Origin: Bilabrum cf. latius
Taxonomy: Eukaryota
NCBI GenBank assembly: GCA_965178125.1
Contig: OZ237759.1
Location: forward strand, 744,001-808,000
DNA length: 64,000 bases
Direction: 5' to 3'
The translations under genes were made by a program, and so were the position numbers. The notes beneath the pieces are model-generated. The model searched no databases. It saw only the letters and a program-made list of their open reading frames with translations, and was not told the DNA's origin. Position 1 is the stretch's first letter, and each line of letters starts with the position of its first letter. Shown piece by piece: positions 13,991-64,000 of the stretch.

Positions 13991-14127
13991 CTCCCCGAGA
14001 TAGAGGATTCCGGCAGAGTTCAAGTTGCGTGTTGTTTGGCGTTTATACGATTTTCAGAGGGACGACACCAATGATTCATTGGCAGTCCAAAACTGCAACA
14101 TTGAATCGTGCTTTTAGCGGCAATTCA

Positions 14128-18029: not shown

Positions 18030-18047
18030 TGAGAATTGCCGTTGAGG

Positions 18048-27581: not shown

Positions 27582-28309
27582 ATGTTCAAGAGGTACGATA
27601 TATTGACCGTTCGAATGTCTGATTGCTTGTTAATGGTTCCAACACCCCCATAAATGCCCTGTTTGTCAGCACCCAATGCGCAGGTTCGAGAAGAGTGATG
27701 TATCTACTGTTACCTTGCTCAAGTCTAGTGCCCAGAGGAATATTCGGAAGCAGATTGTGGAGCAGTATCCAGCATCGGAAGCATCAATCGATAATTTTTT
27801 GCCAGCTGGTGAGCCCATGTGCGCGTTCAAGTTCAGGCAAAGATACTAGGTTGCCTGCCACCAGAGCGAGCTCTTCTAGCGTACCTGCCCAGACGCACGC
27901 AGGCAAAATCGAAGAGGCAAAACTGCCGCACAAGACAACTATTGCGTGCATCGATAAGGAACCTCTTGCTTTCCACGCCAAGGGCGAGCCATATGTGCCA
28001 ACCCTCAGAGTGGTCCACAAATACCCGGGCCTCATGCCCCGTGTGACCGTCGACAAGGGTGCCATCCGGTTCGTCCTCAACGGTGCCAACGTAAAGGCAC
28101 CTGGCCTCACCAGCGAGGGCGGTAGCGTGGAGATCGACGAGCCCGCAGGCACACCGGTGGCCGTGTATGCAGAGGGCAAGGCATCGGCCATCGCTGTGGG
28201 CACCCTCGCCATGGACGCCAAGGACATCAAGCCAGGCGTGACGGGCGATGCCATCAAAGTGCTGCATTACTTGAACGATGGGCTTTGGAAGCTCGAGAAG
28301 CTGGCGTGA
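27582..28309 (+). CDS. MCTS1: MCT-1/Tma20 translation re-initiation factor (PUA domain); introns 27593-27683 and 27809-27902
   Basis: Starts MFKRF; motifs PTLRVVHKYP, VDKGAIRFVLNGANVKAPGLTS and HYLNDGLW; ends at TGA. Confidence 0.93.
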
Positions 28310-30433: not shown

Positions 30434-30752
30434 TGTACGCTACCGTGACGAAGTGTAAATCCTGTGAAAGATGCAAATCATCGAGTAGATCCAGAAAATA
30501 GCAAAATCATTCGGCAACCAGCACAGCCACACAGACCCATAGGAATAAAGGTGTCTCCCGCACCATCATACACTTTGAATACTTAATACGTTGACTCACG
30601 ACAGTAAACTGTGATTCCAGGGAAGGATCGCGCCGTAGCCGCGTTGCGTCGCGCGCTACTGAAGTAGCGTGCTAACGTCTGCATTGCTAGATCGTGCCGC
30701 GCTGATCCCTACACAGCAGCCCACGCACTGATTGCCCCGGTAGTATAGATTC

Positions 30753-36457: not shown

Positions 36458-36838
36458 GAGATGCATGACAATACATTTGGTGCTGTGCCAGCGGTCCAGG
36501 AAGCGCCGGCGCCTTTCTCCATCGAACCGGGCGCCTCGCTGAGCAAGGGTGTCCATGACAATGTGGGGGCATGCTCGGCTGGGAGAGCGCTGCTGGAGCA
36601 GCCATACGGCGCGAGGATGGCCAGCTATTTCGAATTGGCGGGGGTGATTATGGTTACAATGCAGATTGCGTGTACAGCCTGCAAAACCTGCTATGCATCA
36701 CTGTTCCATTCCCGGCCCACGTAGCCCACCAACCTAGTCCAGTGCCTTGACTTGGTCGCAAACTGTAGCACTGTGCAGTTCCTGGACCCAAGCCATATCA
36801 TTACCGGGCCAGCCGGGCCCCGATCTGATTTATTCAAT

Positions 36839-46047: not shown

Positions 46048-49000
46048 TCAGCTGCCGCAGTTCAGGCACCCCTCCTCCTCCTCCTCGAGCCCAGCAGACT
46101 TGGCTCCTCCAATCCGCACCTGCCTGGCAAGGTTGGCCAGCAGGTCGTCCCCGTCCTCCTCCTCGGCAGCAGCCGCGGCGCCAAAGGCGAAGCGGGACTT
46201 GGCCGCAGCGGCGGGCGGTGCCACCGCCGCTGCTGCCTCCGTGGAAGCGCCCGAAGACGCGCCGCTGGAGGCCGCAGCAGGGGTTAGCTTGGCTCCAGCG
46301 GGGGCCCCCACGTTGCCGGAGAGCGCCCTCAGGGCAGGGGAAGAGCCCGCAGAGGCCTTGCTTGGGGAGGCCTCGGCTGCCTCCGCGGCGGCGGCGCCGC
46401 CCTTCGCTGCCTCTGCCTTGCCGGCATCGTCAGCGACCTTCTTGTCGGCCTTGGCCGTGTCCACGGTGAACTGGATGGCATGTGCCTTGGGCTTGGTGCG
46501 CAGGTAGTACATGCCGGTCTTGAGGCCGGACTTCCAGGCGTGGAAGTGCATGGATGTCAGCTTGCGGATGGTGGGCGCGCCCATGTGAATGTTGAGGCTC
46601 TGGCTCTGGCAGATGTACGCCCCGCGGTCCGCGGCCATGTCGATGATGACCCTCTGCTTGATCTCCCACACGGTCTTGTACAGGGCCTTGAGCTCTGCAG
46701 GGATCTCGCTGACGGCCTGGATGCTGCCCCGGTCCCGCATGATCTGGTTGCGGATGCCCTTGGTCCACAGCCCGCGCTCCACGAGGTCGCGCAGCATGTG
46801 CTTGTTCACGATCGTGAATTCGCCGGCCAGCACGCGCCTCGAGTAGATGTTGGAAGTGAACGGCTCGATCCCCTCGTTGTTCCCCATGATCTGGGCGGTG
46901 GATGCCGTGGGCATGGGGGCCACCATGAGCGAGTTGCGGATGCCCGTCTTGACGACCTCTGCCTTGAGCCCGTCCCAGTCGAACCTCGAGGACGGCTTGA
47001 CTCCCCACATGTCGAACTGCAGGCGGCCCTCGGAGGCCGGGCTGCCCTCGAAGGTCTCGTACGGGCCCTCCCTCTGGGCGATCTCGTTCGAGGCGCTCAC
47101 GGCGCCGAAGTAGATTGCCTCAAAGATGTCCTTGTTGAGCTGGCGGGCCGCGGGCGAGTCGAAGGGCAGGCGCATGAGGCACATAGCGTCGGCGAGCCCC
47201 TGCACACCGATGCCGATGGGGCGGTGGCGCATGTTGGAGCGGCGGGCCTCCTCCACGGGGTAGTAGTTCACGTCGATGACCTTGTTCAGGTTGCGGGTCA
47301 CCACCTTGGTGATGCGCACGAGCTCCTCGAAGTCGAACTCGCGGGAGGTCACCTGACCCTTGTCGTCCTTGGACACCCGGACGAACATGGGGAGCGCGAT
47401 GGAGGCAAGGTTGCACACCGCCACCTCATCGGGAGACGTGTACTCTAGGATCTCCGTGCACAAGTTGCTGCTCTTGATCGTGCCCAGGTTCTGCTGGTTG
47501 CTCTTGGCGTTGCATGCGTCCTTGTACAGCATGTAGGGAGTCCCGGTCTCGATCTGGCTCTGCAGGATGGCGAACCAGAGCTTCTGGGCCTTGACCGTGC
47601 GCCTGGCCTTGCCGTCCCTCTCGTACTTGGTGTAGAGCGCCTCGAACTCGGCGCCGTGGCAGTCGGCCAGGCCGGGGGCCTCGTTGGGGCAGAAGGTGGA
47701 CCAGTCCCCGTTGCTCTCCACCCTCTTCATGAACAGGTCAGGCACCCACATGGCGTAGAAGAGGTCCCTGGCCCTGGCCTCCTCCTTCCCGTGGTTCTTC
47801 TTGAGCTCCAGGAACTCGAACACGTCATCGTGCCACGGCTCCAGGTAGATGGCGAAGCTGCCCTTGCGCTTGCCTCCGCCCTGGTCCACGTACCTTGCCG
47901 TGTCGTTGAACACGCGCAGCATGGGGACGATGCCGTTGGAGGAGCCGTTGGTGCCGCCGATGTACGACCCGGTGGCGCGGATGTTGTGGATGGAGAGACC
48001 GATCCCGCCCGCGAACTTGGAGATGCTGGCGCACTGCTTGAGCGTGTCGTAGATCCCGTCGATGGAGTCGCCCTTCATGGTGAGCAGGAAGCAGCTGCTC
48101 AGCTGGGGCCGGGGGGTGCCGCTGTTGAACAGGGTTGGGGTGGCGTGCGTGAAGAACTTCTGGCTCATGAGGTCATACGTCTCGAAGGCAGAGTCCAGGT
48201 CCTCCCCGTGGATGCCCAGGGCCACTCGCATGAAGAGGTGCTGCGGGCGCTCGCTGATGATGCCGTCCATCTTGAGCAGGTAGGAGCGCTCGAGGGTCTT
48301 GAACCCGAAGTAGTCGAACCTGCAATACCAATGGAAAAAGAGATATCGTTGCACGATGGGAAGTGGGGAAGTTGGGGGACCGGGTGTTTCAGTGTCAGCC
48401 GGCGAGGGCTCCTCTGCGACCAACGCGTCACCGCGAAGGAGACTAGAGGGGAGAAAACGCTTCTCTTCTTGGCACAAATATGCAGCTGTCCGCAAGCGCA
48501 AACCCAATCAATCTCGAAATATACGCATTAATCTCACTCGAAGTCCCTCTTGTAGTTGATGGCCTCCTGGATGCGATTGGCGTTCGCCATAACGACAGCG
48601 TGCACCGAATCCGAGATTAGGGGCGCCGGGCGGCCCGTGCTGGGGTGCTTGTAGTCGTGCATCGTGTCGATCAACTTCGAAAAGTTCGTCTCGGTCATCT
48701 TGTGCAGGTTGCTGATGCTGATGCGCGCAGCCAGGATGCTGAAATCCGGGTGCTGGGTGGCATGGTACGCCGCTGCGATGTCGTGAGACTTGTGGGGCAA
48801 CTATACGATATCTGGCATGCACCCGATAGCGGACCCAGAACAACTTCGAATGTAAGCCCAGCCCAACAGTATCAGCCCGTGGGCGGTGGCTGTGGCTGTC
48901 TGATGCAGCGGCGGCGCGTGCGCCCCATCATTCGAAAATCTACTAGACTGATGTCCAGTCACGTAGCGCACAACACCACGAATCAATCCCTAGCGCACGA

Positions 49001-49390: not shown

Positions 49391-50511
49391 CGGACCGGCA
49401 GGAGAATCAGAGCCAGAGGCTTCACGCTTGAGCCCTTTGACAGGCGTCGATGATGCTGTTGCTGCCTGCGATACATAAAATCAGAAGCAGACAGAGGCTG
49501 CATACATACTAACGTAACATGCTCTGCTGCACGAGTGCCGAATTCCCCTCACCATTGTGCCTGAATTTGCTTCGCGAATGCGTCGGGAAATTCAAGCTGC
49601 ACCTGTTTACGGAACCTGCCAGCGAACGCCGCGCATTCGGGATCGGATCAAATTTGAAGCAGAAACGAGTCGAATCATCAGCGATGATGCAGCTGGCAGC
49701 GTCGGAGCTTGAAAAAGTATGTTCTCATAGAAACTATTCCTGTTTCCTCTTGCTGTGTGTGTCTGCTAGCGATGCTTAGCCAGCAGCTCACTGGCAGGAG
49801 CTGATGGCTGGCAGATGCTACCCACAGATTTTGCATAGTCGTTGACTCTAGGGCCCATTCCGTGATACCAATGCGCACTAATCATCATTTAACGCTCCTG
49901 TTCGGGCACCTGCAGAATCGCTGCTGCTCCGCCTCACCCGCCCAACGACAACAGCAGTCGTCGTCCAGGTCGTCATGCCTTCCCTCATCGCTCACATCAC
50001 CGCGTGATATCATTGAAGCTACTATTCCCCAATCTTAAAGCGATAACTCCCTGTTTGCCTCGATCTCAGCGCAAAAAGCGTCGCCGGAGTCGTCGAACAT
50101 ATGACTTCAACATGCATGTGCATGAGAGACGTCCGTGCACGGCGTCTGAACGATGCCTATGCCATGTATTTTAAACAGAACTACATCCTAGACCAGTTCA
50201 CATTGACCTGTGGCTTAATCTTCACCCAGAAGACGAGTATCTGCTGCATAATGCGTTGTTCCGGCTTTTCAGTTGAGGATCGGATCAATATGCTGATGCA
50301 CTTTGGTGGCGTTTCTGCAACTCCTGTCACTGTTACGCGTTCGATAGAACTGTTTCCATTGCCATCTGCTTTTGAGACTGGATTGTGCTCGTTCCATCAC
50401 TTTGGAGTGGAATCAAGTCGAATAGTCACCAAAGTCGGCGAACTATCAATAGTACCGGCCAAACTGCAACAGGAGCTCGTGTCACAGCGGCTGAAGGGTG
50501 TATACCATCGC

Positions 50512-53500
50512 ATGGCCGACACAAAACATCATACTACTGCTTATGTTCCAGAAGGTCCTTGGAAGCTTGCTGGTGAGCTCAGTCCAAGTCCTACCACGGA
50601 TGGAACGCAAGCCGGCGAGCTGTTGCAAGCATCAGCGGCGCGGGACGAAACAGTACATCCTAGCTCCGGCAAGAACGCAAGTGAAGCTCATAGATCAAAT
50701 TCCCCAAATGCTTCGAGTCGAAATGCTGCATAGCCTCCGTTTCTGATCGAGGAGATTGACAGCGCTGCTGCTCAGGTGCATGCAAGGCTGCTGCGCAAGG
50801 CTGGCGCGAGCAGGACCGGCGATGCATCTTCTTTAAAGTCTAAGAGGATGCGATACGGCCAACACGAACCTGAACCATTCACTCGCGGTCAATTCAGCCT
50901 ATCAGTGGCTGGGCAAGGGGGAAGACGGGCCTCGAGCGGGCAACTGCTAGCGGCCCTTGGTCCCGGCCGGGGGGCTGCTCATGCGTCTCCCTCAACCCCC
51001 TCTTTCACCAGGCAAGGGTCGGCCCGCACCCTGGCATCAGAAGAGGGGGAATATGATGGAGATGGTAACGTGTCTTCTATCGATTGCTCGGATGATGACG
51101 AAGATGATGCAGCATGCTATGGTGCTGGGCGAGACCGCAGCCCGGGGGCAAACCACGGCAGCACGGGAAGCGGGGCACGAGATCAGCGGCAAGGGGGCGG
51201 CAGGAGCAGAAGCAGGAGCAGAAGCAGGAGCTCGTATACCTCCAGACCGACAGGCTCGCCTCAGTCTGGGACGTCCTTGCGCCGGTCTAGATCGCGCTCG
51301 TCACACTCGCCGACGCAATCACCCACAGGATCTGCGAGCGCCAAGAGCAGGGACGTGTCTCCATCCTCGGGGTCGTCTAGCACAAGGGGTGGCCAAACTG
51401 GCGCCAGATCCCCGCTGCGGCGCCAGGCCTAGGCCTTCAACGACCAGGAAGGAATGCCCCAAGTGGCTAACTCGGTCGATCACACGCAAGGGACTCAGCT
51501 GCCTTCATCCGCGGCCGACAAAGCGACCTGCTCGGGCACGGGGAACTCCGGCTCCGAATCGGCGAGCCCCAGCAGTTGCGATAATGACGAGTGCAATGGT
51601 ACTGTGGGCGTTGTGGGCATGGGTCTGGCCATCCGGCTGGGCTCACAGCCGGCCGTGCACCCAAGCCAGCTGGGGTCTCCTCTCGCTGGGTCTGATGCTG
51701 GCAGGGACGACGACGCCGATGCAGTGCCCATCGGGCCCATCAGCAGAGGCAGCGCTGCAAGCCCAGTGCAGTGGGACTGTCCAGTGCGTGTGTCTACGGA
51801 GGCACTGTCCCCGAAGAACAAGGAGGGTGCATTGCATGGCAGTGCCGATCGAAGGCTATGGTCGGAGAGCCGTGCCCCGGACGGAGAGACCCCGATGACG
51901 AGCATGCCCGCTGCCCCCAGCGAGTCGGGAGGGGGCACGATCAGGTCCAGGACAGGCACCACCATCGCCGCTGGGACCGGCCTCAAGAGCGGGCGGTTTT
52001 TCGCGAGAGAGCCCAGGGCCGAGTCCCCTTGGAGCCGAGGCAGCGGGACAGAGACGGACACGACTGAGATGTCCGGGCTGTACCCCGGGGGATGGGGGAC
52101 CTCTGGCAGGGAACAAGGTGACAGTCGAGGGGCAGAGCAACACGGCTCCGAGTTTGTGGAGGAGCATATTTGTGTGACGAGTGTGCTGGACTATGGGTAC
52201 GGGGACGGCGACTCCAGAGGGCCAGTGGAGGAGGAGGACGGTGATAGCGTGCGCTTTGTCCAGTCGTGGGTCACCAATGACGCAGATATGTCGGAGGGTG
52301 CGCATTCAAGGCAGGAGGATCTCGGTCGCAGCGAAGCCCACTCGAGATAGGAAGGCTTGGATCGCGGCTACAACGATCCCACTCGGGGCCGACAGCTCGT
52401 GGACCACACGGCAGAACAGGGCATCGGCCATGGTGCAGATGAGGTACACCAAGACTTGGGAGTGACTGGCGACAGCTACACCACGGGCCCAAGCTTCGTG
52501 ACGAGTGCCAACGATGGTGACACACTGAACACAGCCGGGACCTCGCTTATTGAGAAAAGAGCATTGCACTGCAGCGGGACCGGTAAGGACGACATGGAAC
52601 ATCAGCCGGGGAAGAAGTGCCTTCCCGAGTTGTCTCTCGGGTTCCTTTGGGCCGGGCAGAGGGGAAATGCAGGAGAGCGATGTGACGAGTGGGCCTCCCC
52701 CATCGGTGCGAGTGGGAGTGGCCAAACAGGCGGCGAGTTCGGGCCGCACTCGCCCGGTAGCGGCAGCCAAGGGGGCTCAGGGGCAGGGAACAGCAGCCAT
52801 GGGGCCATGGCCGCCCTGCAGCACGCCGTGGATCGGATGGCTCACGGCAGCGACATCGAAGGCAAGCAGGGGTAGACTGACTGCAGCCCTGGAGCGCGCA
52901 GCGGCGCTGGGAAATTGGGTCCTTTCAGGGGTGCGCACGCGGGTTTACCCACTCTCGCCTCTGCCCTAGAGGTGTTTCGCCTCTTTGCCCAGGTGGGCGC
53001 CGGATCTTCCACCGAGCAGGCGCTCATGTCCGTCCTCGGCCTCCTGCGGCGGCCCAGGGTGGCTCACAGTGTGACGAGTGATGTATGCACGAGAGAGGAG
53101 GACAACGTCCAGATGGAGCGACAGCTGGACAGCACAGGAGGAGAACCGGAAGTCGTCTGGTCGAGCGAGGGCTCGCCAGACGCTGAGTTGCTGGGCGTGG
53201 CAGCAGCATACGAGGTGGCATGCACCGTGGGCAGCGTCACACTCAAAGCGGCCGTGGCGGATGCGCTGCTGGGCACAGTGTGCGGGGCTGATAGTGCCGC
53301 CCCCCTGCCAGGCGCAGTGCACTGCGGTGCATTCGCCGGCCCGTCCACCGGCTCGCCTCCTGCCGCAGTGCACTGCGGTGCATTCGCCGGCCCGTCCACC
53401 GGCTCGCCTCCTGCGGCTCCCTTGGACCATTCCGCGGATTCCGTGGCCGAGACTCTTGGCGGCCCGGTGGCATGTTCCCGCAACTTCCGATCCCATGGCG

Positions 53501-55596
53501 ATGCCCCGCTCCAGGCACAGAGCTAGTGCAGTCCGCAGGGAACAAGAGGATCTCCGGTCGCGGAGGAGCTAATCAGCTCGCACTGCGACACCGTGGACGG
53601 CGCGTTCGCACAGTTCGCCAAGCAACACGCGCCTGCAGCGGAGCAACCGGGACCGGGGTGGCTGGCGAGAAGCAGCCAGCCGGGCTCCGCACGAACCCTG
53701 CAGGCCGGCTTCACGGCAGGTTGTGCCGCATAGGACAGCGAGGCCACGCATGGACCGAACCCAGGTGCAGCCATAGGCTCGATGGGGTGGGCTCGGCCGG
53801 CGTGGGAGGTGCCTGCGGTCGACCCCTATCAGTTCCGCGAGAGCCAGGAGGGCGGCAGGCCAGGCCACGTCCGGTACCAGCACCATTTGGCGCCTTGCCT
53901 GTTGGCCAGAGTGGTGGATCTGCAGGCGCACAGAGCTGGGAGGATGCAGGTGGAGGCGGCTCGGCGGGAGATGGAGGGGCAGCTCAGGAGGTACCTGAGG
54001 GGGCAGCAGGTGCACTGCACGCAAGTGCACTCAGACTCCGAGGGGGGCGTCAGTAGCAGCTGGTAGGCCGCTGCATGTACCCATCACCCAGCCGAGCATC
54101 ATCATCCCGCGGGTCACTACCAAGATGGGTATGCCAAAGGGAGAGGAGGCGAGCACGGTGGGATTCCCCCGGAGTACTCGTACGGCCAGTTCCAGGGAAC
54201 AGTAGCGAATGTTGACGATGACATCCACGCGGCAGACGAGGAGGCCATGCGGACGCTGGGTCTGAGCGGGGTAGCTGCCTCGATGGGGACGAAGGGAAGC
54301 GGCAGGGAGGGCACGGGGGCAGAGGGGAAGGGAAGCGGCAGAGAGGGCACGGGGGCAGAGGGGAAGCAAGGCAGCCGTAGCACCATCGATGGAGACGATC
54401 GAGACACGGGTCACGGGTACAGGGGGGGCATATCTGCTACCGATCCGCAGATGGACCGCTACGATCCATCGGTGCGGCACAATGGAGAATCGAGCGGGTC
54501 TCAAGGGAACGAACCAGGGAACAAACCAGGGAACAAATGGTTCCTGGCGGCTCGTGTACCTCCCCCCTGCGACACCGACGAGTCAACCAGCCAGGAAGAA
54601 CGCAAGGAGCAGCAGGACGGGCTAGACTGGAACGGGCATGACTCGGATAGGTCGATGCATGAAGCTACCCGCGGCGAGGGCATGATGGTGACCACTGTGG
54701 GGGGGACACGGGGACTGCTGCCCGTCTCACGCACCGGCATCGACCCGGCGACAGGGGGGCTGGTCATCGGAGGGCGCTTCCAGACAGCTCACGGGATGGG
54801 CAAGAGCGGTTGCAACCCCGTGCCAGCGGATGCTTGCAATCGCCCTGCAGTGTCAGACCCACGGCCACGGTGTGGCTCGGCCCCCGCTGGTACCAGCGGC
54901 GGCGGCCCGACCCATGCCCTGCGCCGCAGCTCCTTGGACCCGTTATCCTCCGGGGAGAGCTTGGGATCGCCAGGGCCCGCCAGGCTCTTCGGGCCCAGGA
55001 GGAACAGACAGGTCCTCGGGATGCAGTGTGACGAGCGAAGAGCCTCCTGTCTGCAGTGCCACCAGCTGCGGCTGCGGCTGCAGACCGTGCGTGCCACCCA
55101 CCGCGCGCGCGTCAGGGCACTGAAGCGGGATATGGGCGCGGCAGCAGAGGCCATAGAAGACCTCAGAATGGCACTTAGAGTGGCGCGCAGGCGACGAAGC
55201 AGCGGGAGCAAATCGGCGAAATAGGATACCAACGGAAAGGCCATGTCGGAGCCGGGACATGCCGGTGGGGCGAGATGCCATGGCGAAAGTATAAATTACG
55301 CCCAGCCCTCGTACCGACAGCCGGACGAGAACGAGGACGAAGAGGGGGAGGAGGGCGGTGAGCCGTTCGATGCCAAAGACGAGGCCATCGAGGAGCTGAG
55401 AGCCATGTGCGCATTCCTGCGCTCAGAGATTCGCGCCGAGCGTCGGGCGGCTAGGAAGAGAGAGAGGCTAGGCGCTCGCCTGCTGGCAGAGAACGCCGCT
55501 CACTTCGCGCTGCAGGAGCACCGGATGGCGACGGCGTGCCGAGCGCTGGTGCAGTGGGTCGCGCGGTCGGGCGATGCGAGCGAACAAGTCTGCTGA
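50512..55596 (+). CDS. Very large disordered hypothetical protein (~1690 aa; start uncertain, frame open from 50101), 8 in-frame TAG
   Basis: ORFs at 50101, 50776, 51454, 52357, 52915, 53782, 54247 and 55243 are all in the same frame and each ends in TAG except the last (TGA). The C-terminus is coiled-coil-like. Confidence 0.72.
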
Positions 55597-55644
55597 CCGC
55601 TAATTATGCAGAATACTGCTATTCATACTGTCGATTCCTGCAAT

Positions 55645-56238
55645 TTATAAGCCATTGTCTTTCCCGCTGGTTCCGACCTCGAGCTCCAGCTCCCGGACCC
55701 GCCTCGACAGAATTTCCACGACTCGAACCAGGCGAGCCACGTCGTCCTGCGCCTTGTCTAACTGTGCAGCGAGTATTCTATTATCGGACCTAACCTAGCC
55801 TGTTTTCAGGTCCACGTGCTCTTTGATGCCGGCCACTTCGGACGTCACACGAGCCGCTAAGTCCTCTCCGGTGCCTCGAATCGCATCCTCCTGTCGGTCA
55901 AGCCGCTCGGTCATTCCGTTGATTTCGATCCTGTGCTAATCGATAGATGCGTCGTGCTCCGCAGCTCTGGTTCTCAGTCTGCTCACTACATCTCGCAACC
56001 TTGAGCCGCCATCGTCCAGAGGAGCCGCACTCTCGTGCGAGCGGGCGGTGGCTGAAAAGCCCGTTCGACTGAAGGCAGACGGTGACTACATAAAACTCCA
56101 CAGCAAATCCGCCCGATGTATTCCGGAGAACTTTTGCTATTCTGCGCGCCCACCCGATTGGAGGAGAAGCGAGTACGGCGTCACTATCCGGCTCCGAATC
56201 GCCGAAAAAGAGCCGTTCACATGACGACAACAATTCAT
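55645..56238 (-). CDS. Hypothetical coiled-coil protein (197 aa), 4 in-frame TAG, ends in TAA; absent from the ORF track
   Basis: MNCCRHVNGSFSAIRSRIVTPYSLLLQ...DASID*HRIEINGMTERLDRQEDAIR...ILSRRVRELELEVGTSGKDNGL-TAA. Confidence 0.62.
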
Positions 56239-56408
56239 CGATTCCCGATAGCTATGGCTGCATCAAGTAACGCTCTAAATCTTGCTCTGAAATACGCAGC
56301 ATTTAGTCTGTACACTATCGATTATCAGCTAGACGCTCACGCCCGCGCACACGCCACACACAAAACATAATCACGGCTTGGCCAAACACCCACCGCACCC
56401 TCTCCCCC

Positions 56409-58499
56409 TCACTGCCTCTCGCCACCGCCCCCCCGGCCCTGCTCGCCCTCTCTGAAGCCCTCCCAGTCCCCGGGCACCTCCACCACCCTGGCCTCCTCCT
56501 CCTCACCACTTACCCACGCCACCCTCCCGCCCCGGCCCCCCCTGCTGACGGGCCGCGCACCGGCAGGCGCGCCCATACCCCCCATCACAGGGGCCTGCGA
56601 CGGCCGGCTGGCACCCCCCACGCCGCTCCCACCCGCCTGTTTGCCCACCCCCTGCTCCGCCTCGATGACTGCCTCTGCCCTCCCGAGCCCCTTGTTCACG
56701 TAGACCGCCCTGGCCTCCGAGAAACCGGTGCTCTTAGCCTGCAGCTCGCTGAGCTTGTCCTGCAGCACCTGCTCGAACAGGGCGCGGTTCACCTGCGCGC
56801 CGCCCCGGCCGTACGCAGCGCCCTGCACACCCAGCATGAGCTTGGAGATGGCGCGCCCGCTCATCCCCTCCGTCAAACCCGCTACCTCCTCCCAGTACGC
56901 GTCCGTGAAATCGTCCCCCTCGATCGACAGCCGGGCAGCGGAGGGCCGCCCCAGCCCGAACAACACACCAGGTGCGTCCTTCCCCGCGTCCCTCACGTAC
57001 TCCTGAAAGTACTTCTTGAGGAGCGCCACCCTCTCCTGTTCCCCGGGCAGCTCGAAGTGCAGGGCCTCATCCACCCTGTCCCCCACGGCGCTGTCGAGGT
57101 CCTCGGGCCGGTTGGTCGCGAGGACCAGCATGATGTCCCGGGAGGCCTCTCCTGTCCTGGCCAGCACGGCATTCAGGGCGTTCCTCTGCTCCTCGCTCAT
57201 GCCCTGCCTCGCTCTCGAGCTCAAAAAGGCATCGGCCTCGTCGATGAACAGCAGCAGCCCGCGGCGGGTGGTGCTCGACCAGTCGAACAGCTTGTGCAGC
57301 TCGGTCACGGCCTCTCTGCCCAGCGGCCCCACGTCTCCGCCCGTCATGAGTGCATAGTCCATCCCGGAGCTGAGCGCGAGTCGCTTGGCGAGCATGGTCT
57401 TGCCAGTCCCCGGGGGTCCGTAGAACAGAGCGTGCCTGAACGGGGCGCCAAACTTGCGGGTGCTGGCAGTGGCCGCCGCCAGCTCCGTCACCCTTCGATC
57501 CAGAGACTTGTCGAGGATCACGCCGGAGATGCCCGTCTCGGCCGGAGGAGCCATGCCCAGCCTGCGCATCAGCATGCGCCTGATCCCGAAATGTCCGGCG
57601 GTGCGGGAGGTCTCGCGGACGAGCTGGGGCTTGAACAGACGTGCCTCCAGCACCCTGCGGGCCACCCTCGTTCCCTCCCGCATGCCGTAGATGCCGGCCG
57701 CCACCGCGGTCACGCCCAGCACCGCTGCGCCCATCTTCTCCCGGTCGCCCAGGAAGCCCCCCATCTGGGAGCCTAGGGAAGAGAAGAACGTTTGTACCGC
57801 TTCTTTGACTTGCTTGACGCGCTGCTCGCCCTTGAGCTGGATCTGCTTCGCGTAGATGTCCTCGTTCTGCCGCATCTCCTCGATGCGCCCAGCTGCCTCG
57901 GCGTTGGCGCGGGCGACGATGTTCTCGCGTTCCAGGGCGGCGCGATGCTCATCGGATCGCCGACGTTCTGCCTAAATCTATTCTTCAGTCTATCGTCTCA
58001 TGTGTTCTCGCTCCATAGCCGCAGCATTTTGCTGACGAACAAGCTCCGCGTTGCGTTTCCTTGCCATTTCATCTTCAAATTGCATTTGCTACCTCTTTGC
58101 TTGCATTCTTTCTTGTTCTAATTGCTACGATGGATGTGAATTGGATGACAGTCATAAAAATGCATGCGTTTCCTGGCACAGACGCAGACAAAGTCGACTG
58201 ATCCAGCAAGGACAGGGACCCCGTCTTGAGCGCCCTCGCTCTACTATATCACTCACTCTTGCCATTTGCATACGATGCTCCTCTGTTTTGCGCTACTCTT
58301 CATACTTTACACGTTCCATTGATACTTGGGCTTCAGCCTGCCTGGCCCGCGCGGTCTCTTGCTCCGTTTCATATTTCTTGTTCTTCAACGCCTGCTCCCT
58401 TCGGGACAGTTCAATCGCAGTCTTTGAGTTCCTTGATGATTCAAGCTATCTTGCGAACTTTGCTGCTCGTTCAAGGGCATCCGCATCAAAATTGGACAT
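56409..58499 (-). CDS. ATAD3: ATPase family AAA domain-containing protein 3 (mitochondrial); intron 58125-58256; 6 in-frame TAG
   Basis: N-terminus MSNFDADALERAAK, coiled coil TEE*I*AERR, KPQLVRETSR, FYGPPGTGKT, MTGGDVGPLG, LLFIDEADAFL, LATNRPEDLD and GMSGRAISKL; ends at TGA. Confidence 0.93.
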
Positions 58500-58642
58500 G
58501 AATCACGAGGCTCACGGATCGTGCCGTCGTGCGTGGTCCAGCCTGAAGCGCCACAGTGTACTGCATCCAATGCGGAGCCCCAAATTGTATCACATTTCTC
58601 GATTCGCCAGCATCAGAACATATTTTTGGGCCCTTGGTTGCG

Positions 58643-61588
58643 ATGCGACTGTTATTATTGATCCTATGTGTCGTTCTTGGTTGCTTGCGGCTGGCCTCGA
58701 CACGCACTATGACTGGAATGGAGCATGTCACAAAGCACATCGAGCGTGAAACCCAGGAAGCCAACGTGCTTAAGCAGAAGATACAAAGCCTATCCAGCTT
58801 TAAGATAAGCGGCAATACAAATAAGCAAGGAGTTGGAACAGGCGATCCGATTCAGGCAGACATTGGACCAAATGGTGACATACACAATACCGATTCCCAC
58901 GCAAATGGGGTGGAGCAGACCCAACCTAAAACCAAGACAGATACAAACACAGCCCCAACCTCTGCTGAGCCCGGTCAAGCTGAGGAAGCAAGGCAAGCTG
59001 AGGAGGCCAGAATCGCTGAGGAGGCCAGAATCGCTGAGGAGGCCAGGCAAGCTGAGGAAGCCAGAATCGCTGAGGAGGCCAGAATCGCTGAGGAAGCAAG
59101 GCAAGCTGAGGAGGCCAGAATCAATGAGGAGGCCAGGCAAGCTGGGGAGGCCAGGCAAGCTGAGGAGGCAAGAATCGCTGAGGAGGCCAGAATCGCTGAG
59201 GAAGCCAGGCAAGCTGAGGAAGCCAGGCAAGCTGAGGAAGGCAGGCAAGCTGAGGAGGCCAGAATCGCTGAGGAGGCCAGAATCGCTGAGGAGGCCAGAA
59301 TCGCTGAGGAGGCCAGAATCGCTGAGGAGGCCAGAATCGCTGAGGAGGCCAGGCAAGCTGGGGAGGCCAGGCAAGCTGAGGAGGCCAGAATCGCTGAGGA
59401 GGCCAGAATCGCTGAGGAGGCCAGGCAAGATGGGGAGGCCAGAATCGCTGAGGAGGCCAGAATCGCTGAAGAGGCCAGAATCGCTGAGGAGGCAAGAATC
59501 GCTGAGGAGGCCAGAATCGCTGAGGAGGCCAGAATCGCTGAGGAGGCCAGGCAAGATGGGGAGGCCAGAATCGCTGAGGAGGCCAGAATCGCTGAAGAGG
59601 CCAGAATCGCTGAGGAGGCCAGAATCGCTGAGGAGGCCAGAATCGCTGAGGAGGCCAGAATCGCTGAGGAGGCCAGAATCGCTGAGGAGGCCAGAATCGC
59701 TGAGGAGGCCAGGCAAGATGGGGAGGCCAGAATCGCTGAGGAGGCCAGAATCGCTGAGGAAGCCAGGCAAGCTGAGGAAGCCAGGCAAGCTGAGGAAGGC
59801 AGGCAAGCTGAGGAGGCCAGAATCGCTGAGGAGGCCAGAATCGCTGAGGAGGCCAGGCAAGCTGAGGAGGCCAGAATCGCTGAGGAAGCCAGGCAAGCTG
59901 AGGAAGCCAGGCAAGCTGAGGAAGGCAGGCAAGCTGAGGAGGCCAGAATCGCTGAGGAGGCCAGAATCGCTGAGGAGGCCAGGCAAGCTGAGGAGGCCAG
60001 AATCGCTGAGGAGGCCAGAATCGCTGAAGAGGCCAGAATCGCTGAGGAGGCCAGAATCGCTGAGGAGGCCAGAATCGCTGAGGAGGCCAGAATCGCTGAG
60101 GAGGCCAGGCAAGCTGGGGAGGCCAGGCAAGCTGAGGAGGCAAGAATCGCTGAGGAGGCCAGAATCGCTGAGGAAGCCAGGCAAGCTGAGGAAGCCAGGC
60201 AAGCTGAGGAAGGCAGGCAAGCTGAGGAGGCCAGAATCGCTGAGGAGGCCAGAATCGCTGAGGAGGCCAGGCAAGCTGAGGAGGCCAGAATCGCTGAGGA
60301 GGCCAGAATCGCTGAAGAGGCCAGAATCGCTGAGGAGGCCAGAATCGCTGAGGAGGCCAGAATCGCTGAGGAGGCCAGAATCGCTGAGGAGGCCAGGCAA
60401 GATGGGGAGGCCAGAATCGCTGAGGAGGCCAGAATCGCTGAAGAGGCCAGAATCGCTGAGGAGGCCAGAATCGCTGAGGAGGCCAGAATCGCTGAGGAGG
60501 CCAGAATCGCTGAGGAGGCCAGAATCGCTGAGGAGGCCAGAATCGCTGAGGAGGCCAGGCAAGATGGGGAGGCCAGAATCGCTGAGGAGGCCAGAATCGC
60601 TGAAGAGGCCAGAATCGCTGAGGAGGCCAGAATCGCTGAGGAGGCCAGAATCGCTGAGGAGGCCAGAATCGCTGAGGAGGCCAGAATCGCTGAGGAGGCC
60701 AGAATCGCTGAGGAGGCCAGAATCGCTGAGGAGGCCAGAATCGCTGAGGAGGCCAGAATCGCTGAGGAGGCCAGAATCGCTGAGGAGGCCAGAATCGCTG
60801 AGGAGGCAAGAATCGCTGAGGAGGCCAGAATCGCTGAGGAGGCCAGAATCGCTGAGGAGGCCAGAATCGCTGAGGAGGCCAGAATCGCTGAGGAGGCCAG
60901 AATCGCTGAGGAGGCCAGAATCGCTGAGGAGGCAAGAATCGCTGAGGAGGCAAGAATCGCTGAGGAGGCAAGAATCGCTGAGGAGGCCAGAATCGCTGAG
61001 GAGGCCAGAATCGCTGAGGAGGCCAGAATCGCTGAGGAGGCCAGAATCGCTGAGGAGGCCAGAATCGCTGAGGAGGCCAGGCAAGCCGAGGAGGCAAGAA
61101 TCGCTGAGGAGGCAAGAATCGCTGAGGAGGCCGAGAAGGCGGGAATTTTTCCGTCTGTTTGGGATGTTGAGCACAGTAAGGAGAAGGCTGGGCAATACTG
61201 GAACGCTGTCTCTGGATACTATGGGGACGTTACTCGGAGCGTTATGGGCGCAGTCTCAGAGTTGGCTGGATAGTTGTCGTCTGCAGTTGGGTACTTTTGG
61301 CGGCAAAGGCGGGCTATCGGTGTACTATTGGGGATTTGTGCTATGGCAGCCGGCATGGTTTGGGTGATCGTCCGAGTGTGCTGCAGCAGGCCTGCTGCCA
61401 GGCGCGCGGGTGGGTCGGGAGCTGGCTCCCGGCAAGTTGCTAGGAGCCCTAGTAGTGGTCCATTTGACCGTGGCAGCCAGTGGGATGAATACCTGGACGA
61501 GTCACAGGCGTGGGAGAGTGGCATGGGGAAGAAGCCGGCTGTGGCTTACCAGGGGGTGGTAAAAGTGGGAGCAGGCGGGGTAGGCTGA
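58643..61588 (+). CDS. Signal-peptide protein with ~120 AEEAR(I/Q) repeats and a C-terminal TM helix reached through TAG at 61271
   Basis: N-terminus MRLLLLILCVVLGCLRLAS. ORF 58556..61273 (TAG) abuts in-frame ORF 61274..61588, which contains IGVLLGICAMAAGMVWVIV and ends at TGA. Confidence 0.8.
58979..61133 (+). repeat. 18-bp coding tandem repeat (GCTGAGGAGGCCAGAATC / ...AGGCAA)
   Basis: Directly visible, with higher-order blocks of variant units. Confidence 0.97.
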
Positions 61589-61700
61589 AAGCTGATGGAA
61601 TTGACGCGAGTTGGGGTTCAACTCTGAGATAAAATACCAGATCTCCAGCGAAGCAATGCTATCTTGAATAGATATGGATGTATCTGACAAATCTCACGAA

Positions 61701-62827
61701 TCATGCCTGCGCCGCTTCCAGCACCTCGATCCTCCGGAGGGCCATGGCAAGCTGAGCAGCGAGACCCGCCACCTGCCTCTCTAGGCCGTCATGGCGATCT
61801 GCATCAGATCGGAGCAAGCCTCCCCCACGCCTGTCCGCCAAGGTGCTCGTAGCTGCCTTCATGGTGGCGTACTGGGGCAATATGGCGTTGTACTCTGCCC
61901 CTATCGGTGCCTTGTGACTCCTCAGGACCTCCACGCATTCCGCGTGTCGCTCCAGAGCGGCAGCCGCCATCGGTGTGACGAAGTGTCCCGTGGGCAGGAA
62001 TCCTTTCCTCGCGTGGCCCTGCGCCAGCTTGCCAAGCCTCAGTCGCTTGGCCAGCTCCAGAGGCCGTCCAGTGGAGGCAGCTTGGAAGACACAGGCAGCG
62101 TCTCTGTGCGCCTCGTGTGCTCTTCTCCATCGAAGCAATTGCTGCCACCTTGGCGGCTTGAAGCTGGCTATCAACGCTGCAATCTGTTCGTTGCTCTCGC
62201 GCACCGCCTCCGCGAAACATGTTCGGCCTTGCTGTGAGTAGAAACAGCTGCCTGAAAACACCATGGTATTATTTGCACTTGAACAATAGGTACCAAAATT
62301 CAACTAGCCTCGGCGCTGGCAAACTCACAGTGTCCCGTATGAACCGGTTGGCTCCCGCTCGCAGCAGATACTCTACAATTTCCTTGCTAGTAGCTTTCTA
62401 CCGGAATGCAGCACGATGCAGCGGGGTATCTCCATTCTACTATCATGGACCAGCTCAATAAGTGAGTGACATGCTTGAAGAGGACGCCTGTACTAGTCGG
62501 TCTAAATGTACCCAGATCAGATTCAAGTCCAGATGCTCACCTTATCTTGTTTGTTGAGATCCACCCCACACCGTACCAGAGCTTTAGCAGCCTCCAGTTT
62601 GCCTGACTCAGACGCCGCATGTAGAGGAGTTTTCCCGAACTGCAGGCATACCGGCAATAAGATCAGCCAAAACTATCGTTTTTAGTGCCAGTGCCGGTGG
62701 CTGATGAGACGAGCGCAATTCAGAGGCTGAAGCCGCTCACGTCCGGCCTTCCCAAAGGTGCATTTAGATCACATCCTTGCAAAAATAGTGATTCGATGGA
62801 CGCACCATCGTCAGCATCGATTGCCAT
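61701..62827 (-). CDS. Ankyrin-repeat protein (exons 62827-62741, 62639-62541, 62436-62329, 62231-61701; start uncertain); TAG at 62398
   Basis: FGKTPLHAASESGKLEAAKALVRCGVDLNKQDK; NGDTPLHRAAFR*KATSKEIVEYLLRAGAN; VTPMAAAALERHAECVEVL; ends at TGA. Confidence 0.85.
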
Positions 62828-63122
62828 CTTGACTTGCCCCGACCTGCTCGCGATAACATGGGCGGGTGTGGCTCAACTGTGATAGAAGTGGAAGTCTGTT
62901 TCATGCCATCGTAGCTACTGCTAACATCGTATTTGAAAAGAATATGAGCGGATCGATAGCCAAATCTGCAGCTTTGGGGAATAGCTGGGGAATAGTCTAG
63001 GGCCTAACCGAAAATATTGATGAGGAGACCAAAAAATTGGCCAACCGATGTTACCAGGCATAGCCAAAGCAAACACATAAACTGGATGCTATATCCGGGG
63101 AATCATATTGGTCAATCCCTGA

Positions 63123-64000
63123 TTAACAGCATCCTCCCTCAGCCTCCTCGGCCAGCCCCCCCCTGGCCGCCACCGCGACCCTCTCGTGGTCCTCCCTCTT
63201 GGCCCTCTTGGCGTCCTCGTGGGCCTTGAAGGCGCCAGGGTGCGCCCCGATGCTCTTCACCAGCGTCTAGATCGCCTGCTCCACGTTGTCTCCCGTCTTG
63301 GCGCTCGTCTCGACGAGGCCGACGAAACCGTTCCTGGTGGCGTACTCCTTGGCCTCGTCCATCGAGACGTCCCTCCTGTCGGCGAGGTCGCTCTTGTTGG
63401 CCACCAGCAGGACAGGCAGGGGAGACCCGTCGGGGAGAGTTACCTTGGATCGGATCTCATTCTTCCACTGCGCGCGGGAGCGACAAGAGGGAAAGGAGGA
63501 GGGGAGTGCCGACAGCAAGGCAAACGACTGCCACCTGGGAGGCGGGTCATTCAAGACCAAGACCGATTTACGGGCCCGCGCATGAACACATTATTTGATC
63601 AGCTGTACTCACCACTTCGATAGACTCGAACGATTTCTTCGAGGTCTAGTCAAACACCAGCAGAGCTCCAAACGCGTCCCTATAGAATACTCGAAAGATG
63701 GCGCCAAAGCGATCCTAGCCTGCAACACAAATATATAGCGGTGTAACGACGTGGACATATAAGCTGTACGACTGAATTGGTCGGGCAACGGATGAGAGCA
63801 GAGCCTGCCTGCTTACCAGCAACGTCCCAACTGCGAGGTGAGATTGCTTGGTCATGACATTGGACGAGTTTCGGCACGAATCGCGTTGCCATCAACGTGT
63901 AGACAACACAGTGATGTCACTCACAGCTAGAGGGAGCCACGTATTGTCCCAACGTCAAACTATTTAAGGTGAAAGTCCACGCCCACGGTGGGCTTCTAGT
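63123..64000 (-). CDS. Rab32/38-like GTPase (5' part outside window), several in-frame TAG, ends GGCC-TAA
   Basis: Spliced model [88 protein letters not shown]...ETSAKTG...AI*TLVK...EGGCC-TAA. Confidence 0.9.

What the first reader, a model, noticed from the sequence alone, without database searches (positions are those of the whole stretch)
63123..63131. TAA remains a stop: UAA and UAG are decoupled (table-15-like code)
Seen in sequence: the Rab32-like gene ends TGC TGT TAA, a CC prenylation motif directly followed by TAA. The 55645..56238 model also ends in TAA. I found no in-frame TAA inside any reconstructed CDS, even the 14283-18029 frame with about 18 TAG and frequent CAA. Established knowledge: most eukaryotic reassignments change UAA and UAG together (table 6). 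Inference: eRF1 here must discriminate UAA from UAG, and a dedicated CUA-anticodon tRNA should exist.
Basis: partly seen in the sequence, partly recalled or inferred. Interest (0 to 1): 0.88.

Follow-up and report, generated by a model that had tools for sequence, protein, structure and literature searches.

The report
UAG means glutamine, UAA still stops
In this GC-rich protist DNA the stop codon TAG is read as glutamine while TAA and TGA still end genes, a rare but already described kind of genetic code seen here in what looks like a lineage not yet reported to have it.

Summary
On the minus strand a Rab32-type GTPase gene ends TGC TGT TAA at 63131..63123. Spliced contigs from three public runs run straight through Cys-Cys-TAA into at least 20 to 99 nt of AT-richer 3' sequence.

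In 14,833 in-frame codons of 19 ORFs there are 76 TAG, 0 TAA and 0 TGA. Out of frame, the same ORFs hold 78 TAA and 182 TAG, so 22 to 33 in-frame TAA would be expected if TAA were a sense codon. Delimiting ORFs by TGA alone leaves these ORFs unchanged.

TAG sits at near-invariant glutamines in ATAD3, in two Rab motifs and in NDOR1. Glutamine is the only residue with positive log-odds.

Of 22 gene models, 20 end in TGA, 2 in TAA and none in TAG.

This is a table-15-like code. The variant is already known from Iotanema and a few ciliates, and this organism is neither.

The sample is small: only one conserved gene ends in TAA. tRNA-Gln(CUA) and eRF1 could not be checked, because no genome is held. 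The lineage is unresolved.

The parts
63123..63125 (-). TAA stop codon of the Rab32-type GTPase gene
   Evidence: Sequence. Spliced contigs of runs X5, X7 and X8 pass through it without a joint.
63126..63131 (-). TGC TGT: the two C-terminal cysteines (prenylation motif)
   Evidence: Of 12 library hits whose best aligned stretch reaches the query's last residue, 9 end exactly at their own last residue. The five of these whose sequence I printed end in Cys-Cys.
63126..63467 (-). Last coding exon of the Rab gene, with one in-frame TAG at 63269..63267
   Evidence: Exon start is fixed by the joint 63467/63613 in three runs. Pfam Ras match. Best PDB hits are Rab7L1, Rab32 and Rab38.
63024..63122 (-). 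3' untranslated stretch covered by transcript contigs; GC 0.44 against 0.66 in the last coding exon
   Evidence: Contigs end at 63103 (X5), 63070 (X7) and 63024 (X8). GC values. The next in-frame stops are TAA at 63053..63051 and TGA at 62903..62901.
63613..63719 (-). Rab exon with TAG at 63717..63715, the position of the catalytic Gln of the G3 (DxxGQ) motif, plus one more TAG
   Evidence: Joints, translation. The homologue column has Q in 33 of 41 non-gap residues.
63817..63830 (-). 14-nt microexon of the Rab gene
   Evidence: In one search (tables 5, 5c, 8), 7 of its letters stand unplaced between the two sides of the joint. The other 7 were laid on 63720..63726 with one mismatch. Flanking introns are GT..AG.
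63925..64000 (-). Upstream Rab exon, running off the window, with TAG at 63929..63927, the Gln position of the LQLWD-type motif
   Evidence: The homologue column has Q in 30 of 38 non-gap residues.
55645..56109 (-). Lineage-specific coiled-coil ORF ending in TAA (55647..55645), with 3 in-frame TAG
   Evidence: It has no family match and no homologue, so it is weak evidence.
56409..58151 (-). ATAD3 gene body: 5 in-frame TAG (first bases 58127, 58091, 57992, 57980, 57974); TGA stop at 56411..56409
   Evidence: Pfam ATAD3_N and AAA. Alignment to 120 hits gives Q in 115 of 117 non-gap residues at the TAG at 57974.
23384..26020 (-). NADPH-dependent diflavin oxidoreductase (NDOR1/Tah18 type): 3 in-frame TAG; TGA stop
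   Evidence: Pfam. The TAG at 25639 aligns with Q of human NDOR1, chain 4h2d_A. C-terminal region.
46048..48507 (-). Ribonucleotide reductase large subunit, main exon: no TAG, GC3 0.89, TGA stop
20342..20902 (+). Main exon of a second Rab-type GTPase, ending Cys-Cys-Gly-Gln then TGA (20900..20902), with one in-frame TAG
   Evidence: Pfam Ras 1.5e-30. Translation, stop.
27623..28309 (+). MCTS1/Tma20-type PUA protein, last exon, TGA stop
61701..62838 (-). Ankyrin-repeat gene directly downstream of the Rab: 3 coding introns plus one 5' UTR intron seen in X7 alone, one in-frame TAG in the spliced form, TGA stop
   Evidence: Pfam Ank. Joints, spliced translation.
14283..18029 (+). 1,248-codon lineage-specific ORF with 18 in-frame TAG and no TAA; TGA stop

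Best explanation
The organism reads its nuclear genes with a code in which UAG is glutamine while UAA and UGA stay termination codons, as in NCBI table 15.

Shown here:
- TAG stands in frame in most genes and at conserved glutamine positions.
- TAG is kept in spliced transcripts.
- TAA and TGA never stand in frame.
- TGA closes most genes, and TAA closes at least one conserved gene right after its C-terminal Cys-Cys.

Inferred from published work on other UAG-only lineages:
- A tRNA-Gln with anticodon CUA, one mutation away from tRNA-Gln(CUG), pairs with UAG but not UAA.
- The release factor eRF1 no longer competes effectively at UAG but still recognises UAA and UGA.
For: (1) TAG is a sense codon.
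- There are 76 in-frame TAG in 14,833 codons, present in 17 of 19 ORFs. That is about as frequent as out of frame (98 and 84).

(2) TAG means Gln.
- ATAD3: the column at the TAG at 57974 has Q in 115 of 117 non-gap residues, and a second column has Q in 92 of 117.
- Rab: Q in 30 of 38 and in 33 of 41, the latter being the G3 catalytic Gln.
- NDOR1: the TAG aligns to Q of human NDOR1.
- Summed over 11 TAG columns, log-odds are Q +20.9 bits and the next best (K) -20.0.

(3) TAG is not removed or edited.
- Spliced contigs of X5, X7 and X8 carry the Rab and ankyrin exons with no other letters at any position.
- Two short proteins predicted from an independent, near-identical assembly break exactly at the Rab TAG (P0249, P0250).

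(4) TAA is not a sense codon.
- There are 0 in-frame TAA against 36 and 42 out of frame.
- The number expected if TAA were sense is 31.8 by the CAA:CAG ratio, 23.2 by GAA:GAG and 22.5 by AAA:AAG. From one search's counts, the off-frame TAA:TAG ratio gives 32.6.
- ORFs delimited by TGA alone do not fuse across TAA in any coding frame.

(5) TAA terminates.
- The Rab ends Cys-Cys-TAA.
- Homologues aligned to the last residue end there.
- A full-length Ypt1 chain aligns end to end.
- GC falls from 0.66 to 0.44 right after the TAA.
- The transcript contigs show no splice after the TAA. They stop 121 nt or more before the next in-frame TGA.

(6) TGA terminates.
- It closes 20 of 22 models, including a second Rab that ends CCGQ-TGA.
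Against: - The sample is one 64-kb window. Only 2 of 22 models end in TAA and only one of those, the Rab, is a conserved gene.
- The zero count of in-frame TAA allows, at 95%, a frequency up to about 3 in 14,833 codons, so rare or context-dependent sense use is not excluded.
- Four ORFs in the tally are paralogues and several are low-complexity. All lineage-specific ORFs are unverified as genes.
- Logan contigs cannot show transcript ends. The contigs stop at three different places. The library type of X5, X7 and X8 is not on record; the tool guesses 'RNA?' and, for X5, 'probably DNA'.
- A 66%-identical relative's predicted protein (P0248) continues 19 residues beyond its Cys-Cys, starting with W. 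I could not fetch its DNA. It may be a TGA read as Trp by the gene caller, but that is a guess.
- No tRNA gene and no eRF1 gene could be examined.
Confidence: 0.85

Rival explanations
1. Both UAA and UAG are glutamine codons (table-6-like). TAA is merely rare because the genome is GC-rich, so the Rab TAA would be translated.
For: TAA is the rarest of the three triplets in the window: 355 on both strands against 892 TAG and 1,876 TGA. TGA closes 20 of 22 models, so TGA alone could in principle suffice as a stop.
Against: - TAA is not absent by composition: the same ORFs hold 78 TAA out of frame and 176 in-frame CAA, yet 0 in-frame TAA against 22-33 expected.
- Reading through the Rab TAA would add 74 codons of 44%-GC sequence holding a further TAA and a TAG. 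It would bury the Cys-Cys prenylation end.
- The transcript contigs stop before the next TGA.
Confidence: 0.03
2. The code is ambiguous. UAA (or UAG) is both sense and stop depending on context, as in Condylostoma, Blastocrithidia or Amoebophrya sp. ex Karlodinium veneficum, and the window is too small to show the minor use.
For: - Such codes exist (passages of PMC12005148; PMC5304391).
- The closest named ATAD3 and RNR relatives come from a Symbiodinium assembly. An alveolate affinity, and so a link to Amoebophrya, is therefore possible.
- The window cannot exclude an in-frame TAA frequency below about 0.02%.
Against: - There are no in-frame TAA or TGA in 14,833 codons, while TAG is at 0.51%.
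- No model ends in TAG (0 of 22).
- Amoebophrya sp. Kv is described as much more AT-rich than its relatives and carries all three stops in frame in about half of its genes. That is unlike this 60%-GC window.
Confidence: 0.08
3. The in-frame TAGs are not translated at all. They would reflect pseudogenes, assembly errors, unrecognised introns or RNA editing, so nothing can be said about the code.
For: Many ORFs in the window are lineage-specific and low-complexity with no homologues. Logan contigs can drop rare variants.
Against: - TAG lies at the catalytic Gln of a Rab and at near-invariant Gln positions of ATAD3 and NDOR1.
- It persists in spliced contigs from three runs of two studies, with no letter differences.
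- It recurs at the same place in an independent near-identical assembly.
- In-frame TAG is as common as out-of-frame TAG, whereas TAA and TGA are excluded.
Confidence: 0.02

Closest known systems
Iotanema spirale (Fornicata): UAG = Gln, UAA and UGA = stop (Panek et al. 2017, PMC5304391; passages read)
   Same: The same code: in-frame UAG at Gln positions, no UAG terminators, and UAA and UGA kept as stops. The authors predicted a tRNA-Gln(CUA).
   Different: In Iotanema UAA is the predominant terminator, whereas here TGA closes 20 of 22 models. This window is 55-66% GC and encodes the mitochondrial protein ATAD3. That Iotanema is an anaerobe without classical mitochondria is my recollection, not a call result. 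No relatedness is indicated.
Ciliates with UAG = Gln only: Hartmannula sinica, Trochilia petrani, Protocruzia tuzeti (McGowan et al. 2024, PMC11687900; abstract, introduction and discussion passages read)
   Same: UAG is reassigned to Gln independently of UAA, and UAA is retained as a stop.
   Different: In those ciliates UAA is the preferred stop. Here the genome is GC-rich with long genes, introns of about 80-145 nt and TGA as the main stop. That ciliates are generally AT-rich is recalled. The one GC figure I read in that paper is 28% for Chilodontopsis.
NCBI translation table 15 ('Blepharisma nuclear': TAG = Gln)
   Same: The same codon table as inferred here.
   Different: PMC5304391 says this variant was 'attributed' to Blepharisma 'by some sources'. 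PMC11687900 lists Blepharisma under UGA = Trp. Table 15 is therefore a label for the code, not a relative.
UAG-only reassignments to other residues: Rhizaria sp. exLh and uncultured phyllopharyngean ciliates (Leu), Scotinosphaera (Ser)
   Same: UAG is decoupled from UAA, and UAA is kept as a stop.
   Different: The residue differs. Here Gln is the only residue with positive log-odds, and neither Leu nor Ser is among the eight best-scoring residues.
Amoebophrya sp. ex Karlodinium veneficum (all three stop codons contextually translated; PMC12005148, passages read)
   Same: Possibly the same broad group, if this organism is an alveolate. UAG is probably Gln there too.
   Different: There UAA and UGA also stand in frame and the genome is AT-rich. 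Here neither UAA nor UGA stands in frame in 14,833 codons.

Membership tests
Table-15-like nuclear code (UAG = Gln; UAA, UGA = stop) | In-frame UAG at conserved glutamine positions of conserved proteins | tested here: met
   ATAD3: Q in 115 of 117 and 92 of 117 non-gap residues. Rab: Q in 30 of 38 and 33 of 41. NDOR1 against chain 4h2d_A. Log-odds Q +20.9, next best -20.0.
Table-15-like nuclear code (UAG = Gln; UAA, UGA = stop) | UAG is not used as a terminator | tested here: met
   0 of 22 gene models end in TAG. The sample is small, and the lineage-specific ORFs were delimited with TAG read as sense.
Table-15-like nuclear code (UAG = Gln; UAA, UGA = stop) | UAA is absent in frame and is used as a terminator | tested here: met
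   0 in-frame TAA in 14,833 codons against 22-33 expected. The Rab ends Cys-Cys-TAA, with transcript contigs running into the 3' UTR. A second TAA-terminated ORF lies at 55645. Only one conserved gene ends in TAA.
Table-15-like nuclear code (UAG = Gln; UAA, UGA = stop) | UGA is a terminator and is not in frame | tested here: met
   20 of 22 models end in TGA, including a Rab ending CCGQ-TGA. There are 0 in-frame TGA against 246 and 391 out of frame.
Table-15-like nuclear code (UAG = Gln; UAA, UGA = stop) | A tRNA-Gln with anticodon CUA is present, and there is no tRNA with anticodon UUA | not testable with these tools
   No tRNA in the window (ARAGORN; Rfam). No whole genome is held.
Table-15-like nuclear code (UAG = Gln; UAA, UGA = stop) | eRF1 N-domain altered so that UAG is no longer recognised | not testable with these tools
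   eRF1 is not in the window. According to PMC5304391 the UAG = Leu rhizarian shows no obvious eRF1 deviation, so this feature may not be diagnostic.
Table-6-like code (UAA and UAG = Gln) | In-frame UAA at glutamine positions | tested here: not met
   0 in-frame TAA.
Ambiguous codes with all three stops also read as sense | In-frame UAA and UGA in conserved genes | tested here: not met
   0 in-frame TAA and 0 in-frame TGA in 14,833 codons. Rare use is not excluded.
Rab32/Rab38/Rab29 subfamily of small GTPases | Closest similarity is to these Rabs, with a WDxAGQ(E/D)RF-type G3 region and a C-terminal cysteine prenylation motif | tested here: met
   The nine best PDB sequences are Rab7L1, Rab32 and Rab38. 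G3 region. Cys-Cys end. The N-terminal part of the gene lies beyond the window, so no full subfamily phylogeny was made.

The most novel reading that the evidence does not exclude
This is an independent, so far unreported origin of the UAG = Gln / UAA = stop code in a GC-rich, intron-bearing protist, possibly an alveolate, in which TGA rather than TAA is the main terminator. If so, UAG was captured without the AT pressure and UAA-dominated termination seen in the ciliate and Iotanema cases I read about. The lineage, and its 82%-identical relative seen in public runs, would offer a system for asking how eRF1 tells UAA from UAG. It could also be an early stage of the path that led to all-stop reassignment in a syndinean.
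Probability: 0.4. Interest if true: 0.75.

Novelty: new member of a known kind. Interest (0 to 1): 0.6.

Why it matters
Codes in which UAG and UAA differ are rare. The papers I read name about eight lineages and call such codes 'particularly interesting and rare' (PMC11687900).

- Each independent origin tests whether the usual coupling of UAA and UAG is a mechanistic constraint (wobble by a UUA anticodon, joint recognition by eRF1) or an accident of history.
- A GC-rich case with TGA as the main stop would widen the conditions under which UAG can be captured.
- Practically, any annotation of this genome under the standard code, or under table 6, will be wrong. The standard code truncates or mis-splices most genes, since 17 of 19 ORFs here hold TAG. 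Table 6 would read through real TAA stops such as the Rab's.

Tried and rejected
- Whole genome: none is held.
- Sequencing runs: no RNA holder is listed on record. The three runs guessed as 'RNA?' were laid anyway.
- Fetching the DNA of the related Rab (P0248) from metagenome contigs: the machine gave no answer three times. What follows Cys-Cys in the relative therefore stays open.
- Lineage:
  - The dinoflagellate spliced-leader motif is absent.
  - Rfam found nothing in the window.
  - The protein atlas gave no useful taxa.
  - The paralogue family at 3689..5521 had no hit at all.
  - Cluster look-ups gave one named relative each for RNR (Symbiodinium sp. KB8) and ATAD3 (a EukProt transcript) and none for the Rab.
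  - An RNR tree put the gene in a clade with Bacteroidota-labelled sequences, so it says nothing about the organism.
  - A search for the accession prefix of the EukProt relative found no paper.
  - The lineage stays unresolved. 'Alveolate' is only a lean, from the 55% ATAD3 and 76% RNR hits.
- Literature: four full-text searches on UAG/glutamine/UAA reassignment turned up no non-ciliate UAG = Gln lineage other than Iotanema. The library holds only open-access papers and preprints, supplements are closed, and I could not search by organism name, so this is not proof of novelty.
- TAG share of Gln codons against GC3 per ORF: Spearman -0.33, p = 0.17, not significant. Dropped.
- Rejected as sources of in-frame TAA: the TAA codons with long open stretches on both sides. 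The nine longest I checked lie antisense to, or out of frame with, the coding ORFs, or in the 26-29 kb region. In that region the real genes (MCTS1 and a weak Vps55-like match) are in other frames.

Full report
**What is at the coordinates**

The + strand at 63123..63131 is the reverse complement of TGC TGT TAA. It closes the last exon of a small GTPase gene on the minus strand.
- That exon matches Pfam Ras.
- Its nine best solved relatives are Rab7L1/Rab29, Rab32 and Rab38.

The window has 55-66% GC. It holds no tRNA and no Rfam family. No whole genome is held for it, so everything below rests on 64 kb plus public protein and read collections.

**Gene inventory**

I read TAG as sense and scanned the long ORFs and four otherwise unannotated regions against Pfam.

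| Gene | Coordinates and strand |
|---|---|
| Ribonucleotide reductase large subunit | 46051..48507, minus |
| ATAD3 | 56412..58151, minus |
| NDOR1/Tah18-type diflavin reductase | 23387..26020, minus |
| GHL15 protein 1 | 29123..30565, minus |
| GHL15 protein 2 | 30732..31910, plus |
| MCTS1-type PUA protein | 27.6-28.3 kb, plus |
| Second Rab-type GTPase | 20.1-20.9 kb, plus |
| Ankyrin-repeat gene | 61.7-62.8 kb, minus |
| Reverse-transcriptase fragment | 11847..14042, minus |
| Rab32-type gene | 63123 to beyond 64000, minus |

The rest are long, low-complexity, lineage-specific ORFs. They include four paralogues with no database hit.

I count 22 gene models. Twenty end in TGA, two in TAA and none in TAG. 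The two TAA-terminated models are the Rab32-type gene and a coiled-coil ORF at 55645..56109.

**TAG is a sense codon and means glutamine**
- In 19 ORFs (14,833 codons) TAG stands in frame 76 times, in 17 of the 19 ORFs. That is about as often as in the two other frames, 98 and 84.
- In an alignment of ATAD3 with its 120 best hits, the TAG at 57974 falls in a column with Q in 115 of 117 non-gap residues. Another TAG falls in a column with Q in 92 of 117. The other three columns are variable: S, K and A are commonest, with Q present.
- In the NDOR1-type gene, the TAG at 25639 aligns with Q of human NDOR1.
- For the Rab, I joined the exons inside a script and aligned them with 54 Rab-length hits of 150.
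  - One TAG lies at the Gln of the LQLWD-type motif, Q in 30 of 38.
  - One lies at the catalytic Gln of the G3 motif, Q in 33 of 41.
  - The other four columns are variable.
- Summed over all 11 columns, glutamine is the only residue with positive log-odds, +20.9 bits. The next best is Lys at -20.0.

**The TAGs are in the mature message**

I laid contigs of four public runs on 61650..64000.
- Run X1 covers the stretch unspliced in one piece. It may be the source of the assembly.
- Runs X5 and X7 (one study) and X8 (another study) hold intron-less forms.
- Removed Rab introns: 63468..63612, 63720..63816 and 63831..63924.
- Removed ankyrin introns: 62232..62328, 62437..62540 and 62640..62740. 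A further one, 62842..62923, is seen in X7 alone.
- Every removed interval is bounded by GT..AG on the minus strand.
- The 14-nt microexon 63817..63830 that I had predicted from the sequence is borne out. Seven of its letters stand unplaced at the joint. The other seven were laid on the intron end with one mismatch.
- No other letter differences were listed, so the six TAG of the partial Rab message and the one TAG of the ankyrin message are unedited.

Caveats: these are Logan contigs and the library type is not on record. The tool guesses 'RNA?' and, for X5, 'probably DNA'. Precise loss of six or seven GT..AG introns at 99-100% identity is most simply explained by cDNA.

Independently, two short proteins predicted from a near-identical assembly end and begin exactly at the TAG of the last Rab exon (P0249, P0250).

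**TAA behaves like TGA, not like TAG**
- In the same 14,833 codons TAA is in frame 0 times, against 36 and 42 times out of frame. TGA is in frame 0 times, against 246 and 391.
- Those ORFs were delimited by TAA and TGA, so the zeros are partly by construction. I therefore repeated the ORF search with TGA as the only stop. The coding ORFs are unchanged. For example, 14283..18026 has 1,248 codons with 18 TAG and 0 TAA, and 36458..41869 has 1,804 codons with 6 TAG and 0 TAA.
- Two ORFs gain 10-11 codons at their 5' edge by passing one TAA.
- The TAA codons with long open stretches on both sides lie antisense to, or out of frame with, these ORFs.
- If TAA were a glutamine codon used like TAG, I would expect the following in-frame counts:

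| Basis of expectation | Expected in-frame TAA |
|---|---|
| CAA:CAG ratio | 31.8 |
| GAA:GAG ratio | 23.2 |
| AAA:AAG ratio | 22.5 |
| Off-frame TAA:TAG ratio (78:182, my arithmetic) | 32.6 |

The Poisson chance of seeing none is below 1e-9.

**TAA terminates the Rab**
- The codon follows Cys-Cys directly.
- Twelve library hits have a best aligned stretch that reaches the query's last residue. Nine end exactly at their own last residue, two within one to four residues, and one goes on for 19 residues.
- The five of those nine that I printed end in Cys-Cys.
- Among the 54 Rab-length hits, 19 end CC, 12 end CC plus one to three residues, 4 end CXC, 5 have another Cys in the last five residues, and 14 have none.
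- A full-length yeast Ypt1 chain aligns to the query's end with its own end.
- GC falls from 0.66 in the last coding exon to 0.44 in the 100 nt after the TAA.
- The spliced contigs cross Cys-Cys-TAA with no joint and stop at 63103, 63070 and 63024. In X8 the depth drops from 65 to about 3, where the contigs of the next gene begin.
- The next in-frame stops are a TAA at 63053..63051 and a TGA at 62903..62901. That TGA lies inside the 5' UTR intron of the ankyrin gene.
- Contigs cannot prove a transcript end, so the last three points are a hint and not a proof.

**TGA terminates**

TGA closes 20 of 22 models. One is the second Rab, which ends Cys-Cys-Gly-Gln then TGA. The NDOR1-type protein stops at a length consistent with cytochrome P450 reductase chains. 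That eukaryotic R1 proteins and diflavin reductases end in the same short motifs as these two genes is my recollection, not a call result.

**What it is**

The mechanism is inferred from published reasoning (passages of PMC5304391; introduction of PMC11687900):
- A CUA anticodon pairs with UAG but not UAA, and it is one mutation from the CUG anticodon of a normal tRNA-Gln.
- eRF1 must stop competing at UAG while still reading UAA and UGA.
- PMC5304391 notes that the UAG = Leu rhizarian shows no obvious eRF1 change, so eRF1 motifs may not be diagnostic.

Neither molecule could be examined here.

**Comparison with what is known**

According to PMC11687900 and PMC5304391, UAG and UAA differ in these lineages:

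| Lineage | Meaning of UAG |
|---|---|
| Iotanema spirale | Gln |
| Protocruzia tuzeti | Gln |
| Hartmannula sinica | Gln |
| Trochilia petrani | Gln |
| An uncultured rhizarian | Leu |
| Uncultured phyllopharyngean ciliates | Leu |
| Scotinosphaera | Ser |
| One ciliate | Glu, with UAA = Lys |

- The code found here is therefore a known variant.
- The bearer looks different. It is GC-rich, has GT..AG introns of about 80-145 nt, has long genes, and uses TGA rather than UAA as the main stop.
- Amoebophrya sp. ex Karlodinium veneficum, the one alveolate outside the ciliates with reassigned stops in the papers I read, is AT-rich and uses all three stops in frame.

**Which organism**

This is unresolved.
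- The best ATAD3 hits are unnamed sequences at 55-60% identity. The only named one among the top 26 is from a Symbiodinium sp. KB8 assembly, and plants follow at 46-49%.
- RNR has a 99%-identical and an 82%-identical unnamed relative in Logan assemblies. Its named neighbours are stramenopiles, the Symbiodinium assembly and Bacteroidota-labelled sequences.
- The organism's own proteins are absent from the named collections.
- Spliced contigs of it occur in runs labelled with other organism codes. That fits an organism living with or in others, but I did not pursue it.
- Four literature searches found no report of such a lineage. Their limits are stated under Tried and rejected.

**Verdict**
- Confidence that UAG is Gln in this organism is very high.
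- Confidence that UAA is purely a stop is good (0.85 for the whole statement). It rests on one conserved gene, one orphan ORF and a codon tally from one window.
- The code is a known kind. The lineage is probably a new bearer of it.
- One result is unexplained: a relative's predicted Rab (P0248) continues past its Cys-Cys, and I could not fetch its DNA.

Noticed in passing
window 63817..63830 (minus strand): A 14-nt microexon in the Rab32-type gene, flanked by GT..AG introns of 94 and 97 nt. It encodes part of the G3 motif and is supported by spliced contigs of three runs.
   Followed up: yes
window 3689..5521, 6636..8114, 8858..10690, 18046..18984 (plus strand): Four near-identical paralogues of a Cys-containing protein of about 610 aa, probably secreted. 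It has no Pfam match and no hit among 5.8 billion proteins. Three copies lie in tandem. The fourth follows a reverse-transcriptase fragment and the 1,248-codon ORF.
   Followed up: partly
window 58547..61585 (plus strand): A 1,013-codon ORF made mostly of several hundred copies of a six-residue Glu/Ala/Arg-rich repeat, with a hydrophobic stretch near each end. Its Pfam hits (HRP, hexapeptide) look like low-complexity artefacts.
   Followed up: no
window 46051..48507 (minus strand): The ribonucleotide reductase large subunit falls, in a FastTree tree of the 120 best hits, in a clade with Bacteroidota-labelled MAG proteins (local support 0.965). This could be gene transfer or mislabelled eukaryotic contigs. 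The gene has no TAG and GC3 of 0.89, the highest in the window.
   Followed up: partly
window 55594..55647: Two convergent ORFs, 50047..55596 on the plus strand and 55645..56262 on the minus strand, have stop codons only 48 nt apart. Their 3' UTRs must overlap the partner's coding region if both are real genes.
   Followed up: no
protein P0248 (JGI metagenome contig of 1,471 bp): A 66%-identical relative of the Rab C-terminal exon is predicted to continue 19 residues past its Cys-Cys, beginning with Trp. The gene caller may have read a TGA as Trp. The DNA could not be fetched.
   Followed up: partly
window 11847..14042 (minus strand): A reverse-transcriptase (RVT_1) fragment within a 732-codon ORF holding one TAG. 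It is probably a non-LTR retroelement remnant lying between paralogue copies.
   Followed up: no
window 2013..3520 (minus strand): A tandem repeat of about 51 nt that is open in three frames for 390-480 codons. Which frame is coding, if any, is unclear. One of the frames ends in TAA.
   Followed up: no
runs X5-X8: Contigs holding 41-62% of the sampled words of window 54500..58500 occur in runs labelled with three other organism codes. Three of these runs, laid on 61650..64000, hold spliced forms. This suggests the organism lives in association with others or contaminates their samples.
   Followed up: no
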